From Sphyrna mokarran (lineage: Eukaryota): a stretch of 64,000 nt of DNA. A program made the translations under genes and the position numbers. Each line of letters begins with the position of its first letter. Positions within the stretch are counted from its first letter, which is position 1. Of the stretch, positions 19,388 to 60,690 are shown one piece after another. A model generated the notes under the pieces. The model ran no database searches. It was not told the origin of the DNA and saw only the letters and a program-made list of their open reading frames with translations. The stretch is from contig JAGIQG010000026.1 in NCBI GenBank assembly GCA_024679065.1, positions 35,960,001-36,024,000 of the forward strand, in the 5' to 3' direction.

Positions 19388-19740
19388 GCTGACTGTGTGG
19401 AGTTTGTACATTCTCCCCACGTCTGCGTGGATTTCTTCTGGGCACTCCAGTTTCCTCCCACAGTCCAAAGAATAAAAAGTTTAAAGTTTATTTATTAATC
19501 ACAAGTACAGTTACACTGCATTGAAGTTACTGTGAAATTCCCCCTAGTCTCCACACTCCGGCACCTGTTTGGGTCACTGCACTCAACCAGCACGTCTTTC
19601 AAATTGTGGGAGGAAACTGGAACACCCAGAGGAAACCCATGCAAATAGAGGGAGAATGTGCAAACTCCACACAGACAGTGATCCAAGCTGGGAATCAAAC
19701 CTGATCCTTAGCACTGATTTGCAGCAGTACTAACCACTGT
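19388..19740. mobile_element. Two HE1-like SINEs (partial + copy 19388-19470; - copy 19478-19740)
   Basis: Core motif present in both orientations. Confidence 0.8.
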
Positions 19741-21040: not shown

Positions 21041-21328
21041 GTAGTGTGACATGAACCCAAGATCTCAGTTGAGGTTTTCCTGATGTGTGGAACTTAACTA
21101 TCACTTCCTGCTCAGCGATTCTGTGTTGTCGTTTGTCTTGAAGGCCACCCTGGAAAATGTTTATCAGAAGATCGGAGAATGAATGCCCTCGACTGCTAAA
21201 GGGAAGAGTCTTGCTGGTGATTGTTGAGCGATGTCCACTCAACCATTATCGTAGTGTCTACATGGTCTCGCTGGTATACCATGCCTCTGGACATCTCTTC
21301 CCGCGATGTATCAGGTAGACAACATTGG
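21041..21328 (-). repeat. 288-bp copy of PLE segment 23311-23598 inserted in CR1 ORF1
   Basis: 20 mismatches in 288 nt, no indels. Confidence 0.9.
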
Positions 21329-23029: not shown

Positions 23030-23935
23030 GTGTAAAGTCTCACAACACCAGGTTAAAGTCCAACAGGTTTATTCAGTAGCACAAGCTTTCGGAGTGCTGC
23101 CTCTGCATCAGGTAAGTGGAGAGTTGGGTTCACAAACATGGCATAGATAGACACAGACTCAATCACAAGATAATGTTCGGAATACGAGTCTTAACAGGCA
23201 ATCAAATCTTTACAGGTACAGACAATACAAATGGAAAGAGGATTAAGCGCAGGTTAAGGAGGTATGAAGCCGGACAGTTAGGAGGGTTTTGCAAGCCGTG
23301 GGGGTTATAGGTAGTGTGACATGAACCCAAGATCTCAGTTGAGGCTTTCCTGATGTGTGGAACTTGGCTATCACTTTCTGCTTGGCGATTCTGTGTTGTC
23401 GTTTGTCTTGAAGGCCACCCTGGAGAACATTTATCAGAAGATTGGAGAATGAATGCCCTCGACTGCTAAAGGGAAGAGTCTTGCTGGTGATTGTTGAGCG
23501 ATGTCCATTCAACCGTTATCGTAGTGTCTATATGGTATCACTGGTACACCATGCCTCTGGACATCTTTTCCCGCAGTGTATCAGGTAGACAATATTGGCC
23601 GAGTCGCACGAGTATGTATCATGTACCTGGTGGATGGTTTTCTCACGTGAAATGCTGGCATTCATGTCGATGATCTGGCATGTCTTGCAGAGGTTGCTGT
23701 GGCAGGGTTGTGTGGTGTTGTGATCACTGTTCTCCTGAAGGCTGGATAGTTTGCTGCGAACAATGGTCTGCTTGAGGGTGTGCAGTTGTTTGAAGGCAAA
23801 TAGTTGGGAGTGTGGGGATGGCCCTGGTGAGATGTTCATCATTATCGATGACATGTTGAATGCTCTGAAGAAGATGTTGTAGCTTCTCTGCTCCAGGGAA
23901 GTACTGGACAATGAAGGGTACACTGTTGGCCATGT
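23030..23935 (-). mobile_element. Penelope-like element 3' part (GIY-YIG endonuclease + terminal repeat)
   Basis: PCHSNLCKTC..YSCDSANIVYLIHC..RC..MNGHR..QKVIAKF; terminal AAGTCTCACAACACCAGGTTAAAGTCCAACAGG; degenerate hammerhead at ~23079-23115. Confidence 0.9.
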
Positions 23936-24559: not shown

Positions 24560-25110
24560 ATCTAAACGCCAGTACAACACACCTCATGTGTTTCCCTCAC
24601 GCCCTCTCCCCTCCAAACCCCCCACCAGCATTCCATTGGACCATTCCCTTCTTGACACCCTGGTCCACTCCTCCATTACCCTAACCCTGCATCCTCTTCT
24701 CATGGAATTGCAGAAGGTGCAACGTTTGCTCCTTTACCTCCTTACTGTCCAAGGGCCCAAACACTCCTTTCAGATCAAGCATCTCACTTGCAGTTTGTTC
24801 AATTCAGTATACTGCTCCCAATGTGGTCTACTTTACATTGAAGAGACTAAATGCAGACTGGATGACCGCTTTACGGAACACTTCCACTCAGTCCCCAAGC
24901 ACGACCCCAATCTTCCTGTCACTTGCCATTTTAGCTCAGTATTTTGCTCTCATGCCCATCCTTTGCCTGCCACAAAGCTCTGATGAAGCCTAATGCAGAC
25001 TGGAAAAGAGCAACATCTCATCTTCCGACTGGGCACATACGGCCCTCAGTACTTAAAATGGAGTTCAACAAATTCAGATTATGAACTTTCCTCTCCATCT
25101 TCACTTCCTG
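24560..25110 (+). mobile_element. Penelope-like GIY-YIG fragment
   Basis: HLTCSLFNSVYCSQCGLLYIEETKCRLDDRFTEH...EQHLIFRLGT. Confidence 0.85.
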
Positions 25111-25698
25111 CGTTTGTTTTGTGTAATTCACTTCCTCTGGCTTGTCGTAACACAAACCCATTCCTCCCCCACATGGCCTTTGTTCCTTGTTCAGTTTTGT
25201 TCCCATTAAGCACTGACCTTTGTTTTCCTATTAACACATCCTGCTATCCTACCTATACAATTAACACTCTTCAGTTACTATTGGCACCATTAACATTACT
25301 TGAATCATCAATAACATCAGATAAGTTACACAATATTATTAACATTTGCAACATGTGACTTAATGGGGTGGATCTGCACATTTGACCCCCACCCCCCAAG
25401 TCCCATAAATCACTTCACCAATTAGTCACTTTGATAGTTTTAATATCCATTTTAATCTCTTCAGTTACTTTAGTAAAAGTGGGCATTAGCTAGCTTTGCT
25501 TTAACTCGTATCAGATTTTCTGGTAAAAGTTCAACAGTAGTGTCATATCTCTCATAGTTACTCAACATCTCATTAAGGTCATTCGTAATATTAAAAGAAT
25601 CTTTCTCTCTCATGTATATCAATTAATTTTGTACAACCTATTCTGGTTGGTATCTGAGGTTTAAAGCAAAAGGTAGCATTCGTAATATTACATTATCA

Positions 25699-26022
25699 GG
25701 GCAGCATGTGGCAAAGTGTGGCTGCATGGTGGTACAGTGTTTAGCAGTGCTGCCTCACAGCGCCAGCCTCACAGTTCAATTCCTAGCTTGGGTCACTGTC
25801 TGTGCGGAGACTGCATCTTCTCCCTGTGTCTGCGTGGATTTCTTCCAGGTGCTCTGGTTTCTTTCCACAGTCCTAAAGACTGTTAGGTGCATCGGCCATG
25901 CTAAATTCTCTCCCTCCGTGTACCTGAACAAGCATCAAAGTGTGACAACTAGGGGCTTTTCACAATAACTTCATTGCTGCGTTAACGTAAACCTACTTGT
26001 GACACTAATGAATAAACTTTAA
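25699..26022 (+). mobile_element. HE1-like SINE in env
   Basis: tRNA head plus core plus AATAAACTTT tail. Confidence 0.85.
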
Positions 26023-26653
26023 AGAAAGAGTCTCCCACAAATTAATATTCACACCTTGAACATTATCAACACATCAAATTCAACCCATAGATATCTCCTT
26101 TCGCAATATCCTGCATTTTGTGGAGTAAACCAGGGATTTCCCATCTGGTCTTCAGCACATTCATCTCGAAACATTGCTTCCTATGATAATGCATTGATCA
26201 CCAAACCAAGAAGAATATTTCCATGATGAACTCTCTCTTCAGTTGTACTGTAATAGAATCCAGATAGTACCTGCTGCTATGTTCAATTTAAAATCAGTTT
26301 CTTATCTGAACTATTTTAGTTTACAGAAACAGTTGGTACACAAATTTTACCACTTTATGGGAATATTAATAATTAGGATGACAACATCCCTGATGCTATA
26401 AGATTTCCCCTAGAAGACCAAACCTAGAAATTAAACCTTAGAAGATTATTAGTGCAACAGTGAGAGTAAATAATTTATTCGCAGAGATCCACTAATTGCA
26501 GAGCTCTGCACAGGGAACAGGAGCCAAACTCTCAAGTTATGTCAAACAATAATTTTCTGACACCTTATCAATAATTTTATGTTCAGCAATAAAAGCATTA
26601 ATAAGGTGTTAACAAATTATCTCCAGCAATAAAAGTATTGGTCATTATGGCAA

Positions 26654-26960
26654 GGCACGGTGATACAGTGGTCAGTGTTGCTGGGACCTGGGTTCGATTC
26701 TCGGCTTGAGTCACTTGTCCACATGGAGTCTGCACGTTCTCCCCGTGTCTGCATGGGTTTCCTCCGGGTGCTCTGGTTTCCTCCCACAGTCCAAAGATGT
26801 GCCAGTTAGGTTGATTGGCCGTGCTCTATTGCGCCTTAGTGGTCTGGAATGTGTAGGTTAGAGAGATTAGCAAAGTAAATATTTGGAGTTATGGGGGTAG
26901 GGCATAAAGTGAGATTGTTATCAGCGCAGATTTGATTCTGTACTGTAGACTTTCTATCAT
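26654..26960 (+). mobile_element. HE1-like SINE in env
   Basis: GGCACGGTG...GGTTCGATTC plus core. Confidence 0.85.
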
Positions 26961-27347
26961 TTCTATCAAGTCTTGAAACCAATACTTCAAGACGATGATA
27001 GTTACCAATCCAAATAATCTAAAATGAAAATCAGTTCTTTGGGCATCAGAAACAGTTAATCCTGAGAACTCTGGTGAACAGGAATCGTCTCATCACTGAA
27101 ACATGCCCAGCCATATCCTTCTCTACCAGATTTCCCTTGTTCTCTACAATCTGAACACCCGCTGGTTCATCACTTATCCCTCTCATCCTCACCTAGGATT
27201 CTAACTAAATATTTTGCTCATCTTGTACCCAAGTTAGCTTCACTGATCCCTGTGACTGGGTGGACAAAATATCCCAAAATAACTGATCATCTCTCAGCAA
27301 AGTCAGTGTTGATAAAGAATCAGACAGAAAAGAACCAGACCATTTGT

Positions 27348-27870
27348 GTGGAACTCCTGAGATAAACCAGTCCAGGTATATTGCTACCTTGAAGCTTAAA
27401 ATCAAATTTATATTGACCTTGCTGATTTAAAGCAATAGGTCAGAAATCATTGCTAATATCCAGGTCAGTAAAATACCGCGCTGCTGGAGCCTGTTTCATT
27501 ATTGTCTGGGGGCTAGTTGTTACTGATGGTGCTGTCATTAACTCTCTTCAATCAATTACCAGTCTCTAAGAACCGTCTGGTGTCCTAACTGGCCAAATTA
27601 TCAAATTGTTTGTGGAAGCTACAGGTTGAAAAACACTTTGTTGCAGAAGATTTGTGATTACTTTTGCAATCTCTCCTTCTGTTTGTCCAGCCATGAGATG
27701 GATGATGAAGGAACAGTGCTCCGAATGTTTGTGATTCCAAATAAACCTATTGGACTTTAACCTTTTCTATTTGTTTGGGGAAATCACACTGCCTTTGAGC
27801 TTTTGGGACAGAGATCTCAATGATTATTTCTCCTCTCATTTGATCACAGTTATGCTTACTCATTGTAAAT
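27348..27870 (-). pseudogene. ERV reverse transcriptase N-terminal half
   Basis: SKHNCD..QRQCDFP / IWPVRTPDGS*RLVID*REL / YFTDLDISNDF*PIAL..QYKFDFKLQG / YTWTGLSQEFH, then an abrupt join to integrase-tail-like KWSGSF..DSLS; a PLE fragment is inserted at ~27700-27775. Confidence 0.9.
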
Positions 27871-27999
27871 GTTTGGCAATAATGTCTTCTATTATTAAAT
27901 CATCAAACATATCAGTAGGGTTAGGACAAAATTGCCCAACTGTACAAATCCCTATCTGTGTAAATACCTGAGGATGACTCAAGTGGTTCTTCATTTGTA

Positions 28000-28300
28000 T
28001 TGGCAATAATTTGCCAAATCAAAAGGCAGATTGCATTGACTCAAAATCGGAACTCAAAATGTGCTCTGTCATTCGGGGAATAAAGCTGGGTGGCAACAAA
28101 CTACATCCATCTTAAATCTATCAGGTCCATTCCAAACCCTTATAAATGTCTGTTAAATCCACTGAAAATCGTTATCTCTTTCTTTCACCAAGATAAATGA
28201 ATATCTGTGGATGTGTTAAGGGAAGTGTAAGAATCCCCAGTATCCTATAGGAATTGGAAAGGCATCCTCTGCGCCCCCCCGCCCAAACTGGCCTTCTACC
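28000..28300 (-). pseudogene. ERV aspartic protease
   Basis: FL*DTGDSYT (DTG at 28244-28236), flap SGF, EHILSSDF. Confidence 0.8.
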
Positions 28301-28379
28301 ACAGGTTTCATGCTGCAGAAGCCAGGGATTCAAATCCAATAACTGTGAATAAAGACAAGTAATCTCCTCCACTTCCCTT

Positions 28380-28816
28380 ACTGGAGCCTGCCGCACTGGT
28401 CCCTCTAGTGACAAAGTTTGATATCCCTGTCCTGATTCCTGTCCTGCTCCCAGGAAAGTTTGATATCCCTGTCTGTGTGGGTATTGGCAAGGTGCTCTAC
28501 ACTCCTGAGCAAAGTGACTCATTCGATCACAGTTATAAGATTGGTTCGCCTCTATCTCTACCCACAGGAATTATATATGGAGGAGGATCTGAAACTGGCC
28601 CAAATTCCTCTGACTCTTTTCCTTGTAACTGCTCTAAACATCTGCCCTATTAAGTTTAGAAGCTTGCTTCCTTTGCACGCCAAAAGCTTCTTCCCAACAT
28701 CTCTGGCCTATGGATCCCGAACCCGGTACCAAATTACTACAACGCTTGACCCACTTGGATCACTTCTAGTTTAGATACTTTCTTAACATGGCTTCCCATT
28801 CTTGGCAGGCCGCCAT
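28380..28816 (-). pseudogene. ERV gag remnant with zinc knuckle
   Basis: MAACQEWEAMLRKYL start; SYNCDRMSHFAQEC = CX2CX4HX4C with first Cys TGT>TCT; capsid apparently deleted; in-frame 42-nt-period duplication (QGYQT x2). Confidence 0.75.
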
Positions 28817-29181
28817 TCTCTACACTTTGGCTTCGTCTAAGGGAGGCGAGCAGTTTAGGGATCTGGCTTTCACTACGTTTTCACTCTGAGTCGAAGGCAT
28901 ATCAGAAACGCGCATTGCACTCCTCTGCCACTCAAGGAGATAGCCTTTCTCATGGGTTACCTAGAGTTTACCCTTATCCCTCAACTAACTTAATTTCACT
29001 TCACAAATTCTGCTGTTTGTTAGTCACACCCGGTTTCTTTTCAATTGTTGGCCAATGCACCTCTGTCCCTGTTCATCCAATTGAATCCTGGCCATCTTAA
29101 TACAGGCTCAGGCTGGATGTCCAAGAGTATGTGAAGTTTTAGTGTTCGATTTCAGAGCAACTTCAGCTGCTTCTTACCAAT

Positions 29182-29197
29182 GCCCACCCAGGACCCA
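29182..29197 (-). other. Primer-binding site, tRNA-Asn-like
   Basis: Minus strand ...CTAACA TTT TGGGTCCTGGGTGGGC versus tRNA-Asn complement TGGCGTCCCTGGGTGGGC (two 1-nt deletions), directly after the LTR-terminal CA. Confidence 0.75.
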
Positions 29198-29200
29198 AAA

Positions 29201-30550
29201 TGTTAGCCAACTGGAATACTTAAACCTTTTTCCCAGATATTTCCCCCTTGTGTGACCAACAAAAGATAGACTATTGACTGAGATTTCACTCTTTATTTAG
29301 CATTTCAGGTACCAGTGCTCAATGTAAATCTACATTAGTCACATCACTTAGTTTAACTTACTCAACTTAAATCCATTTAACTTCAACCTTAACTTTTAAC
29401 TCATTTAACTTTAAACTTTTTAACTCCAATTTAACTTTAAAAGTTTAACTGATTTAACTTTTAAGTTTTGACTGAAAACAACCCACTTGAGCGAACTGGC
29501 CAGGTCTCTATGAATCTTCCTCATACATAGTTCTTTATTCTTCTCTCAAAGACGATCTTCGGGCAAACATTGGGAATGTAATCCTTGAGTTTCCGCTGAG
29601 GAAAAAGACACGAAGTACCTCTTTTATTGTGGTAGGGAAAACCCAGGGAGTGTGGAGCACGGCAGGAGAAGAATGTATGGAAAAGATTAAACTGAAAGCA
29701 CTGTTGCATCCACACCCACTGCAGGCAGACACATGACAAATTTTTAATAAGTACATCTCAGACGGTACCAGGTGTGATCATTACAGCAACAGTAAGAAAA
29801 TTGACATCACTTAACAAGACTCAAAAAAAGTCGAGAAGAGCCATTGTGCCTCTGGAAAACTAATCAAGTATGAAAGCATGCAGGATCTGTAAGAAATGAT
29901 CAAAAACAGAACTGTAACCAATTTAAAATAACAATCTGATGACCTAAGTGAAATGTAACACTTTGTAACGCAAAAAGATATAAGAATACACAAGAGCCAA
30001 CAATCAGTAAAGTAACTCAGAACAAAGCTGTAGTTACAGCCACGAGTTCTCTCTCCCTCATGCATGTTGAATAAAGCCATTTTTGTTGAGGTTCTACACG
30101 GTCTCCGAAAACTCCGTTTGTTCATTCCCTCCTACATTTATCCCAAACGCTGCACATTCTTCCAGGAGGCCCTCAGCCAATGATATCGCTGGAAACTGAT
30201 CACAATGTTCGATTATAGTCAACGGAACATAGACAACTCTCAGATGTTTACACTAAGTGCATGTGGGTCACATAGCCTCACCGTATATGGACTATAGAAA
30301 CAGCACTGGGATGTCTGACGTTCTTACTTGGGGTCAGCACAGGAGGTGTCAGGTCACATCTCCCATGACAGTTCATGACTTGCTGCAGCTTTCTCCGACC
30401 AGTATCAGTGTTTAATACAAACTAAACCAAAATTCCCAGCATGCTTGATTGTAGCTCTTAACTATTCTCGTTATTGGTTTTGTCGTTGGCCATCCAGCCA
30501 CAGGACTAAGGACAACAGTGACCCCCACCAAACCACACCGCCCTCGACAT
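29201..30550 (-). mobile_element. 5' LTR of the ERV (interrupted)
   Basis: Ends in CA just before the PBS; minus-strand AATAAA at ~29292 and ~29534; outer end uncertain. Confidence 0.6.
29628..30136 (+). mobile_element. 509-bp solo LTR with 5-bp TSD
   Basis: TGTGGTAGGGAA...TTCCCTCCTACA (10/12 inverted match); TTTAT at 29623-29627 and 30137-30141; TATAAG 29979; AATAAA 30070. Confidence 0.85.
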
Positions 30551-32558: not shown

Positions 32559-32848
32559 GGGGCAGTGGTTAGCACTCAGCACTGCCTCACTGCGACAGGG
32601 TCCCAGATTTGAGTCCCAGCTTGGGTCACTGTCTGCGTGGAATTTGCACATTCTCCCTGTGTCTACATGGGTTTCCTCTGGGTGCTTCGGTTTTCTCCCA
32701 CAGTCCGGAAGACATGCTGATTAGGTCTGCTGGCCGTGCTAAATTCTCCCTCCGTGTACCTGAACAGTGCTGGGGTGTGGCAACCAGAGGATTGTCACAG
32801 TAACTTCATTGCAGTGTCAATGTAAATCTACTTGTGACAATAATAAAT
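32559..32848 (+). mobile_element. HE1-like SINE
   Basis: Head plus core plus AATAAA tail. Confidence 0.85.
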
Positions 32849-33279
32849 ACATGTATAAAAATAAATATCTTAGAGTTTGGGATGTAGTTTGCCAACAGGC
32901 CTGGATCCCAGAACACCACAGCAGTAAGGGTTGGGGAAGGCAGGGCATCTATCAAGTGGAGCAGTGCCAGGAGGAGATCCATTTTCCAGCCTCAGAAAGT
33001 TTCTGGAGGTCTATTTTCTAATTCAGGAGTTCCGCTTCTTTTTTCAATAATGGGTCAGTGATGATGAGTCTCATTTCAGTAGGGCAGGTATGACGGTGGG
33101 AAGCACACTGTCAAATCACCCCATCATAGAATATGCCCCTAAACCCCACGGGGATGTGGGCTGGAGAATATGGTCCCTCTGGTCTCCGCAGCAAGAAATA
33201 CTCTCTGTTCCCACCCCTGCCACAGGACTTAGTCCCAAATGGGAGATTTCCACCAGTGTTTCATTGTGTTAACAGAATC

Positions 33280-34362
33280 CATCTCCAAACACATCTCCAA
33301 TCTCCGTGGCCTGGGCCTCGGCTTCTCTCTCTCTGCAACTGGATCCTGAATTTCCTCACTCACATACCACAATCAGTAAGGATAGGCAACAGTACCTCCT
33401 CCATGATCATCCTCAACATCCCCACAAGGCTGTGTTCTCAGCCCCCTACTATACTCCTTATACAACAATGACTGTGCTGCCAAATTCCCCTCCAAGTCGA
33501 TTTTCAAGTTTGCTGACCCCACCGCCGTAGTGGGTCGGATCTCAAACAATGATGAGACAGAAGTACAGGAATGAGACAGAGAATCAGTTCACCAGAACTG
33601 ATGATGCGGCAACAATAATCTCTCCCTCACTTTCAACAAAATGAAGGAGATTGTCATCGACTTCAGGAAGCGTAAGGGAGAACATGCCCCTCTCTACATC
33701 AACGGGGACGATGTAGAAAAGATCGAGAGCTTCAAGTTTTTAGATGTTCAGATCACCAGCAAACTGTCCTGGTCCCCCCATGCTGACACTACAGTTAAGA
33801 AAGTTCACCAATGCCTCTACTTCCTCAGAAGACTAAGGAAATTTGGCATGTCCGCTACAACTCTCACCAACTTTTACAGATGCACTGTAGAAAGCATTCC
33901 TGCAGATTGTACCACAATTTGGTATAGCTCCAGCTCAGCCCAAGATCGCAAGGAACTATAAAAAGTTGTGAATGTAGCCCAATCCATCACGCAAACCAGC
34001 CTCCCATCCATTGACTCTGTCTACACTTCCCGCTGCCTCGGCAAAGCAGCCGGCACAATTAAGGACTCCATGCACCCTGGACATTTTCTTTCCACTTCTT
34101 CCGTCGGGAAAAAATGCAAAAGTCTGAGGTCACGTACCAACCGACTCAAGAACAGCTTCTTCCCTGCTGCTGTCAGACTTTTGAATGGACCTACCTTGCA
34201 TTAAGATAATCTTTCTCTATACTGTAGCTATGACCGTAACACTACATTCTGCACGGTCTCACTTCCTTCTCTATAAACGGTATACTTTGTTTGTGTAGTG
34301 TGCAAGTAACAATACTTTTCACTGTTATGTTAATACATGCAACAGTAATAAATCATATCAAA
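33280..34362 (+). mobile_element. Rex1/Babar LINE 3' part
   Basis: MKEIVIDFRK..PLYING..FKFL..LSWSPH..KKVHQCLYFLRRLRKFGMS..RTNRLKNSFFPAAVRLLN; AATAAATCATATCAAA tail. Confidence 0.9.
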
Positions 34363-44915: not shown

Positions 44916-45179
44916 GATTTTTTTATTTGAAAATATGACTAATCAGGTTTGTCAAAATTACTCAGAACTGTAGACCTTCGCTTAGTGGCAGGACAAGTAA
45001 TGGAATCTGTACTCATTGTATGAGAGGATGATTGAGGAAAAGTTAAGCTGCATTTGATCACAGATTAGATAGAGTGATTCCTGCAGAGGAGTAAAGTGGT
45101 GCTGTGAGTTTAAGAGAATGTAGTAATGTAATTAATGCATGAGATATCTATGGAGAGAATTTGTTCTTATTTAAAGATG

Positions 45180-45435
45180 ATTTATTTATTTGTCACAAGT
45201 AGGCTTATATTAATATTGCAATGAAGTTACTGTGAAAATCCCCTAGTTGTTCACAACACCTGTTCAGGTACACTGAGGGAGAATTTAGCATGGCCAATGC
45301 ACCTAGCCAGCACACGTTTGGATGATAGGAGGAAATGCATGCAGATATGGGAAGAACGTGCAAACTCTACACAGACAGTGAGCCAAGCTGGGAATTGTAC
45401 TTGGGTCTCTGTGAGGTAGAGTCCTTGCCACTGTG
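45180..45435 (-). mobile_element. HE1-like SINE
   Basis: Reverse-complement core and tail. Confidence 0.8.
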
Positions 45436-60352: not shown

Positions 60353-60690
60353 AAAGTTAAAGTTTATTTATTAATGTCATAAATAGTTTTACTTTAACAC
60401 TGCAATGAAGTTACTGTGAAAATCCCCTGGTCGCTACATCCTGGTGCTGGTTCAGGTAGATGCAGGGAGAAGTTAGCATCACCACTGCACATAACCAGGA
60501 TATTTTTTGGTCTGTGGGAGAAAACTGGAGCACCCGGAGAAAATCCACACAGATACGGGGAGAACATGCAGACTCCACACAGACATTGACCCAAGTCAGG
60601 AATCGAACCTGTGTCCTTGGAGCTGTGAGGGTGCAGTGCTAACCACAGCTCCACCGTACAGTGCCACCCTGTGCCACACTGTGCCACCAA
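60353..60690 (-). mobile_element. HE1-like SINE
   Basis: Reverse-complement full copy. Confidence 0.85.

What the first reader, a model, noticed from the sequence alone, without database searches (positions are those of the whole stretch)
25260..30550. Deleted endogenous retrovirus with an unusual mix: tRNA-Asn PBS, CCHC gag, spuma/loki-like pol, non-gamma env
Seen on the minus strand, in order: LTR end CA, Asn-type PBS, gag with zinc knuckle, DTG protease, RT (KHNC..QRQCDFP, WPVRTPDGS.RL.ID, LDISN.F), a clean jump to an integrase-tail motif, and a glycoprotein remnant with NxT sites, a Trp-rich segment and a hydrophobic end; no gamma-type immunosuppressive/CX6CC motif is visible. Known: LDISN-type RT is foamy-like but foamy Gag lacks CCHC; lokiretroviruses are a basal lineage whose Env resembles Mononegavirales fusion proteins. 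Inference: a basal, possibly loki-like retrovirus lineage in a cartilaginous fish.
Basis: partly seen in the sequence, partly recalled or inferred. Interest (0 to 1): 0.75.

Follow-up and report, generated by a model that had tools for sequence, protein, structure and literature searches.

The report
Decayed snakehead-type retrovirus fossil in shark
This is a broken, heavily deleted retrovirus relic, likely from a shark genome, that likely belongs to the known snakehead-retrovirus-like group rather than to lokiretroviruses, so its 'unusual mix' of parts is likely ordinary and only its envelope type stays undetermined.

Summary
A real but dead endogenous retrovirus lies on the minus strand (about 29200-25160): Asn-type primer site, short gag remnant with a damaged CCHC knuckle, protease, and the front half of RT. 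About 2.7 kb of pol is gone, and likely most of gag. The RT is 63% identical to an intact unnamed relative (P0098), whose family also appears inside a Mustelus shark gene model. In an RT+tether tree the family sits among non-loki retroviruses (100/97). AU tests reject grouping with loki (p 0.010), tetrapod foamy (0.02) and gamma/epsilon (0.002), but not with snakehead retrovirus (0.105). By eye the gag end and protease start match the published whale-shark consensus rh_ty_ERV2, listed beside snakehead retrovirus in clade Huo. CCHC Gag with LDISN-type RT is normal there. The claimed integrase tail and glycoprotein features were not confirmed: two SINEs sit in the 3' region, N-x-S/T counts equal shuffles, and 0 of 6 env references align. 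No LTR pair was found. Verdict: new member of a known kind; env type open.

The parts
29182..29202 (-). CA dinucleotide (likely LTR end) followed by a degenerate tRNA-Asn-type primer-binding site
   Evidence: 16 of 18 bases match the PBS of L039; chance tests; no second LTR found, so the LTR end is inferred
28400..28960 (-). Short, frameshifted gag remnant: PPPY motif (28586-28575) and damaged CCHC knuckle (28540-28499); capsid likely deleted
   Evidence: Translation, pattern scan; by-eye likeness to the gag end of rh_ty_ERV2; PBS-to-knuckle about 0.65 kb versus about 1.9 kb in SnRV; no significant alignment to SnRV Gag; start approximate
27960..28290 (-). Aspartic protease remnant, DTG at 28244-28236
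   Evidence: tblastn to P0087/P0098; frameshift-aware score 212 versus shuffle maximum 42 for SnRV pro-RT
27342..27949 (-). RT N-terminal half up to motif B; stops and frameshifts; YxDD motif and the rest of pol absent
   Evidence: 63% identity to P0098 over 139 columns
27686..27770 (.). About 85-nt insertion in RT holding a 61-nt host repeat (27703-27763), with a short imperfect duplication at its flanks
   Evidence: gap in tblastn; three other copies in the window; flanks
25200..27340 (-). Region in the env position (about 1.5 kb without the SINEs): likely env remnant, type undetermined
   Evidence: position only; no match in Pfam, PDB, env profiles or frameshift-aware alignment
26650..26965 (+). 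SINE copy inserted in the env-position region
   Evidence: 26683-26874 matches many window copies; outer limits from my recall of the shark HE1 SINE, not from a call
25707..26026 (+). Second SINE copy inserted in the env-position region
   Evidence: self-BLAST, 77% over 324 nt to the copy at 60357-60678
25159..25170 (-). Polypurine-tract-like run followed by TG; a possible 3' LTR start, followed within about 110 nt by another host repeat (24812-25047)
   Evidence: sequence, repeat hits; 10 purines only, and no likeness to the 5' side (158 of 200 shuffles score as high)

Best explanation
This is a non-coding, internally deleted provirus that likely belongs to the snakehead-retrovirus-like class III group (clade Huo of Xu et al. 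2018) and likely sits in a shark genome. Shown: gag, protease and RT are broken by stops and frameshifts, pol ends after motif B, and three host repeats lie inside the element. Inferred mechanism: a retrovirus likely primed by tRNA-Asn, with CCHC Gag and a protease-RT-tether-RNase H-integrase Pol, integrated into the germ line; large deletions then removed most of gag and about 2.7 kb of pol (during reverse transcription or later in the genome; not distinguished), and the copy decayed neutrally while SINEs inserted. It cannot replicate by itself. The 3' region is likely the env remnant, likely not gamma-type, but its type is not established.
For: Closest relatives: P0098 (63%) and P0001 (58%), then coelacanth, frog and turtle Pol proteins (37-47%), SnRV 37%, foamy 29-32%, loki 27-29%, gypsy 13-24% (names). 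The window, P0001 and P0098 form a clade (100/99) inside the non-loki retroviruses (100/97) in a 39-row RT+tether tree rooted on Gypsy. AU tests on 30 of those 39 rows reject family+loki (p 0.010), +tetrapod foamy (0.02), +gamma/epsilon (0.002) and +ERV-L (0.013), and do not reject +SnRV (0.105) or a 14-row SnRV-like clade (0.30). P0098 has tether and a following RNase H start. A near-identical piece of the family is in a Mustelus asterias gene model. The gag end and protease start resemble whale-shark rh_ty_ERV2 by eye, whose label stands next to Snakehead_retrovirus near the Clade Huo label in S2 Fig. Class III is the commonest ERV class in cartilaginous fish: 2843 RT loci in 6 genomes (PMC11089739).
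Against: My trees do not recover a supported SnRV-like clade: these rows form an unresolved basal fork. With the short RT alone, AU tests did not reject sisterhood with loki (p 0.40) or foamy (p 0.54) (47 of 67 rows). The rh_ty_ERV2 link is by eye on a 400-character stretch, and its clade is read from label order in PDF text. Elephant-shark and teleost foamy-like ERVs (clade Tu) were not in my trees. The group labels on tree rows are mine, from motifs, genome size and PBS. The window's Gag does not align significantly to SnRV Gag (47 versus shuffle maximum 55). The host is inferred, not given.
Confidence: 0.8

Rival explanations
1. A shark foamy-like ERV (clade Tu, related to the C. milii retroviruses 1-5 / CmiFLERV).
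For: Best PDB hits are foamy RT; Asn PBS occurs in galago foamy virus and newt FLERVs; shark FLERVs are published; short-RT AU test does not reject.
Against: PDB holds no SnRV-like RT among the hits, so best hit is uninformative; AU p 0.02 against tetrapod foamy with the intact relative; foamy and fish foamy-like Gag lack Cys-His boxes while this has one; teleost FLERV RT motifs differ by eye.
Confidence: 0.07
2. A lokiretrovirus, the first in cartilaginous fish.
For: No gamma-type env motif; a weak by-eye likeness of about 26 codons near 27265-27190 to the first strand of loki Env in the paper's supplement (7 identities, not beyond chance by my rough estimate); short-RT AU test does not reject sisterhood. 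The five shark and chimaera genomes I saw in Table S2 of PMC7947760 carry no asterisk (I read the asterisk as presence), so it would be new.
Against: Outside loki at 99/98 and 100/97; AU p 0.010; loki RT motifs (PLSRWPM, TWNRCPFGY) are absent and SnRV-type ones present; 27-29% identity to loki versus 37-47% to most SnRV-like Pol rows.
Confidence: 0.03
3. A separate deep class III lineage of sharks that is not truly part of clade Huo, possibly with an env taken from another lineage.
For: Unresolved position in both trees; the env region matches none of gamma, epsilon, foamy or SnRV env; env swapping is known in this group (CmiERV-I has gamma-type env; SnRV does not).
Against: SnRV grouping not rejected; by-eye match to a published Huo member; decay alone can hide env homology.
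Confidence: 0.09
4. A Ty3/Gypsy retrotransposon or a gamma/epsilon retrovirus.
For: Database names of some relatives say 'Gypsy retrotransposon integrase-like protein' (automatic).
Against: Gypsy excluded at 100/99, gamma/epsilon AU p 0.002; relatives carry tether plus RNase H.
Confidence: 0.01

Closest known systems
rh_ty_ERV2, whale-shark ERV consensus (Xu et al. 2018, PMC6001957, S2 Data; clade Huo)
   Same: By eye: CCHC knuckle, then LEGP and LY at similar spacing, then FL-DTG-S-T-LN protease start; shark host.
   Different: Only the first 400 characters of each entry were readable, so its PBS, RT and env could not be compared; the window copy is deleted and decayed.
Snakehead retrovirus (SnRV; L001, identified by length 10,688 and an RT matching the published SnRV RT)
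   Same: CCHC Gag, LDISN-type RT, WPV-x-PDGS motif, env without gamma-type Pfam hit; SnRV Env looks F-like by Atlas features (0.91, a lead only).
   Different: Different PBS (labelled Arg from recall), 37% RT identity, long Env and accessory genes; no alignment to the window's env region.
CmiERV lineage I / ca_mi_ERV1 (elephant shark; Han 2015, PMC4422223)
   Same: SnRV-like Pol with HKHDCG, WPVRKPDGSW, LDISNGFW; CCHC Gag; LTR ending CTAACA like the bases before the window's PBS (by eye).
   Different: Non-Asn PBS (Ser type by recall) and gamma-type env; its look-alike P0005 does not group with the window family.
Lokiretroviruses (Wang and Han 2021, PMC7947760)
   Same: Tether plus RNase H in the intact relative; no gamma env.
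   Different: RT outside the loki clade; loki RT motifs absent; F-like env not shown here.
Foamy viruses and FLERVs
   Same: RT likeness; Asn PBS in some members.
   Different: Cys-His box present here; tetrapod foamy grouping rejected; foamy Env profile finds nothing.

Membership tests
Retroviridae (ERV) | RT inside the retrovirus clade, not Ty3/Gypsy | tested here: met
Retroviridae (ERV) | PBS-gag-pro-pol order | tested here: met
Retroviridae (ERV) | Tether plus second RNase H | tested here: inconclusive
   deleted in the window; present in relative P0098 and other relatives
Retroviridae (ERV) | env gene | tested here: inconclusive
   region present by position; no homology found
Retroviridae (ERV) | Paired LTRs and target-site duplication | tested here: not met
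   no LTR pair; expected loss in a decayed copy, but not shown
SnRV-like class III ERVs (clade Huo) | Pol groups with snakehead retrovirus | tested here: inconclusive
   unresolved fork; grouping not rejected (p 0.105, 0.30) while all four alternatives tested were rejected
SnRV-like class III ERVs (clade Huo) | Close kin to a published member | tested here: inconclusive
   by-eye match to rh_ty_ERV2; no computed alignment
SnRV-like class III ERVs (clade Huo) | CCHC Gag with LDISN-type RT, as in SnRV and CmiERV-I (typical, not defining) | tested here: met
Lokiretroviruses | RT inside the loki clade, sister to all other retroviruses | tested here: not met
   not rejected as sister with the short RT alone
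Lokiretroviruses | Env similar to PF00523 fusion glycoprotein | tested here: inconclusive
   no Pfam hit in 3 frames; no loki Env was available as a query
Lokiretroviruses | Integrase close to CGIN1 | not testable with these tools
   integrase deleted in the window
Foamy viruses / FLERVs (clade Tu) | Gag without Cys-His box | tested here: not met
   knuckle at 28540-28499; feature from PMC5210030
Foamy viruses / FLERVs (clade Tu) | Pol groups with foamy viruses | tested here: not met
   AU p 0.02 against tetrapod foamy; shark and teleost FLERVs were not in the tree
Gamma/epsilon retroviruses | RT in class I | tested here: not met
   AU p 0.002
Gamma-type Env | ISD followed by CX6CC | tested here: not met
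   could be lost by decay or deletion

The most novel reading that the evidence does not exclude
The shark family carries a compact paramyxovirus-F-type envelope (about 500 codons, loki-like in size) on a snakehead-type Pol, extending F-type Env beyond loki and foamy viruses into shark class III retroviruses and supporting F-type Env as ancestral or repeatedly swapped at the base of retroviruses.
Probability: 0.3. Interest if true: 0.5.

Novelty: new member of a known kind. Interest (0 to 1): 0.2.

Why it matters
As it stands it is one more decayed class III ERV in a group where these are the commonest kind (PMC11089739), and likely kin to a published whale-shark family. Its only open value is the envelope: SnRV-like retroviruses carry different env types (gamma-type in CmiERV-I, F-like by a lead in SnRV), and foamy and loki Env are related to paramyxovirus F (PMC11468914, PMC7947760). 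Knowing the env type of this shark family would add one data point on which fusion protein the earliest retroviruses used. This copy is too decayed to answer that.

Tried and rejected
No whole genome is held, so copy number and fuller copies were not examined. Rfam and ARAGORN: nothing in the window. Pfam on 9 frame translations: one chance hit. Word-based protein searches with the window RT (38 candidates) and the middle env-region frame (413 candidates): no hits, weak evidence. PDB searches with three env-region frames: only chance hits, best E 0.54. Foamy Env profile against three frames of 26648-25201: best E 0.059, probability 0.9%, taken as chance; the same profile also misses SnRV Env, so the test is weak for distant F-type proteins. 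Gamma (13 rows), foamy (13 rows) and SnRV env searches over 1704 window pieces: no significant hit. Frameshift-aware alignment: 0 of 6 env references above 40 shuffles each, z -1.9 to 1.2. Single-sequence fold of part of SnRV Env: pLDDT 39, not used. No loci of the family in viral contigs or prokaryote genomes; the metagenome scan gave 17 loci, none of this family; no loki locus in viral contigs. Sequencing runs: 11 listed from 5 studies, one DNA run holds 0.93 of the words, the other 10 hold 0.07 or less; no RNA holder listed. No read-level evidence was obtained. Earlier scan findings: none in 4 look-ups. Considered and dropped: another PBS further upstream (no better site among 5 types); reading SINE-derived frames near 26965-26850 as env.
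Full report
What is there. On the minus strand the window holds, in order, a CA followed by a primer-binding-site-like stretch (29202-29182), a short gag remnant with PPPY and a damaged CCHC knuckle (28540-28499), a protease with DTG (28244), and RT up to motif B (27949-27342). All frames carry stops and frameshifts. The PBS matches 16 of 18 bases of the Asn-type PBS of foamy genome L039; 4 of 2000 resamples of the upstream stretch do as well, 0 of 2000 if a preceding CA is required. The tRNA type was picked after the fact, so this is good but not airtight. Pol homology ends at about 27342; four full-length relatives have 903-927 more residues there, so about 2.7 kb is missing, including the catalytic motif, RNase H and integrase. 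PBS to knuckle is about 0.65 kb against about 1.9 kb in snakehead retrovirus, so most of gag is likely missing too. An insert of about 85 nt splits RT and two SINE copies lie in the 3' region. No LTR pair exists.

What was not confirmed. The integrase tail has no support from a profile of 7 Pol C-termini. The 3' region is about 1.5 kb once the SINEs are set aside and sits where env should be, ending near a short purine run plus TG, but N-x-S/T and stop counts are at shuffle level, and it matches nothing in Pfam, PDB, the protein collection, gamma or foamy Env profiles, or six env references in a frameshift-aware alignment whose positive control scored 212 against a shuffle maximum of 42. These tests are weak for distant F-type proteins: the foamy profile also misses SnRV Env, and no loki Env was available as a query. 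A gamma-type ISD/CX6CC is absent, which makes a gamma env less likely but may reflect loss. By eye there is a faint likeness near 27265-27190 to the first strand of loki Env in the supplement of PMC7947760: 7 identities in 26, not beyond chance by my rough estimate.

Where it belongs. A full HMMER scan gave 49 RT relatives. The closest are unnamed fragments P0001 and P0011; a search with P0001 gave P0087 and its longer cluster member P0098, 63% identical to the window RT and homologous through the protease. A near-identical piece of P0087 is fused into a Mustelus asterias gene model, which ties the family to sharks; the host of the window itself is inferred. Next come coelacanth, frog and turtle Pol proteins and SnRV. 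References for foamy, gamma, epsilon, alpha, beta, lentivirus, ERV-L and Gypsy came and the 49 hits; three loki rows were recognised by the loki RT motifs printed in PMC7947760's supplement. All these labels are mine. In the 67-row RT tree and the 39-row RT+tether tree the window groups with P0001 and P0011 or P0098 (100/98, 100/99), outside loki, Gypsy, tetrapod foamy, ERV-L and gamma/epsilon, in an unresolved basal fork that also holds SnRV. With the short RT alone (47 of 67 rows; 20 long, short or redundant rows dropped) AU tests could not reject sisterhood with loki or foamy (p 0.40, 0.54). With P0098 included (30 of 39 rows; 9 dropped) they rejected loki (0.010), tetrapod foamy (0.02), gamma/epsilon (0.002) and ERV-L (0.013), but not SnRV (0.105) or a wider SnRV-like clade (0.30). 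Non-rejection does not show a clade.

Comparison with print. Xu et al. 2018 (PMC6001957: passages, section 7, supplement searches, file 7 part 16 with entries cut at 400 characters, file 2 label text) define clade Huo as related to snakehead retrovirus and present in all major vertebrate lineages. Their whale-shark consensus rh_ty_ERV2 resembles the window's gag end and protease start by eye, and its label stands directly before Snakehead_retrovirus. Han 2015 (PMC4422223: first half of the text, supplement 1 part 1) describes elephant-shark lineage I as SnRV-like; by eye it has CCHC Gag, LDISNGFW RT and gamma-type env. SnRV has zf-CCHC Gag and an Env with no gamma hit. So CCHC Gag with foamy-looking RT is the normal state of this group. 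Asn primer sites are reported in galago foamy virus, newt FLERVs and guppy/molly ERVs (PMC5512871, PMC5210030; passages). Clade III makes up most ERV RT loci in cartilaginous fish (PMC11089739, passages). Wang and Han 2021 (PMC7947760: parts 1-2 of 4, supplement part 1 and searches) list no cartilaginous fish among loki hosts. Also seen: PMC10699275 (parts 1-2 of 4), and passages of PMC12193657, PMC4977317, PMC11468914, PMC12583693, PMC9967133, PMC13524379 and bioRxiv 10.1101/2024.03.17.585361. Unseen supplement text matters here: the rest of rh_ty_ERV2 (PBS, RT, env) and the C. milii retrovirus 1-5 sequences could confirm or upset the placement. The HE1 name for the SINE, the Ser and Arg labels for other primer sites, and the Penelope and LINE readings are recalled; one search gave only a listing.

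How it works. It no longer does: shown are the broken frames, the deletion in pol and the insertions. Inferred are germ-line integration of a tRNA-Asn-primed class III retrovirus, later deletions, neutral decay, and that the 3' region is env. Age cannot be dated without LTRs.

Verdict. New member of a known kind, likely of an already published shark family; interest 0.2. The loki reading is unlikely (0.03). The boldest reading left open is a compact F-type envelope on a snakehead-type Pol in sharks (0.3; interest 0.5 if true), which needs better-preserved natural copies to test.

Noticed in passing
window 21041-21328 and 23311-23598: Two 288-nt direct repeats, 93% identical, 2270 nt apart; the second overlaps a 142-aa minus-strand frame with no Pfam hit that reads like a Penelope-type element tail (by recall). 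Possibly one partly duplicated retroelement.
   Followed up: partly
whole window, e.g. 19585-19740, 32563-32849, 45167-45419, 60357-60678: A SINE family with more than a dozen copies at 68-85% identity; HE1-like (elasmobranch SINE) by recall, in line with a shark or ray host.
   Followed up: partly
window 33605-33958: Frame with an ALKBH8_N Pfam hit (E 2.9e-09); by recall this domain marks the tail of LINE reverse transcriptases, so likely a LINE fragment.
   Followed up: partly
L001 6131-9532: Snakehead retrovirus Env (residues 420-1010) scores 0.91 to a baculovirus-F cluster and 0.88 to Fusion_gly clusters in the Atlas: a lead that SnRV Env is F-type. I did not see this stated in the passages read; not confirmed by profile or fold.
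   Followed up: partly
protein P0096 (XP_078069703.1): A Mustelus asterias transporter gene model begins with pol pieces of this ERV family, likely an annotation fusion.
   Followed up: no
window 29480-29340: A run of degenerate AAGTTAAA-like repeats upstream of the PBS-like site, with AATAAA at 29628, 29539 and 29297; role unknown.
   Followed up: no
window 26549-26620: A 72-nt imperfect self-complementary stretch (77%) next to the SINE inside the env-position region.
   Followed up: no
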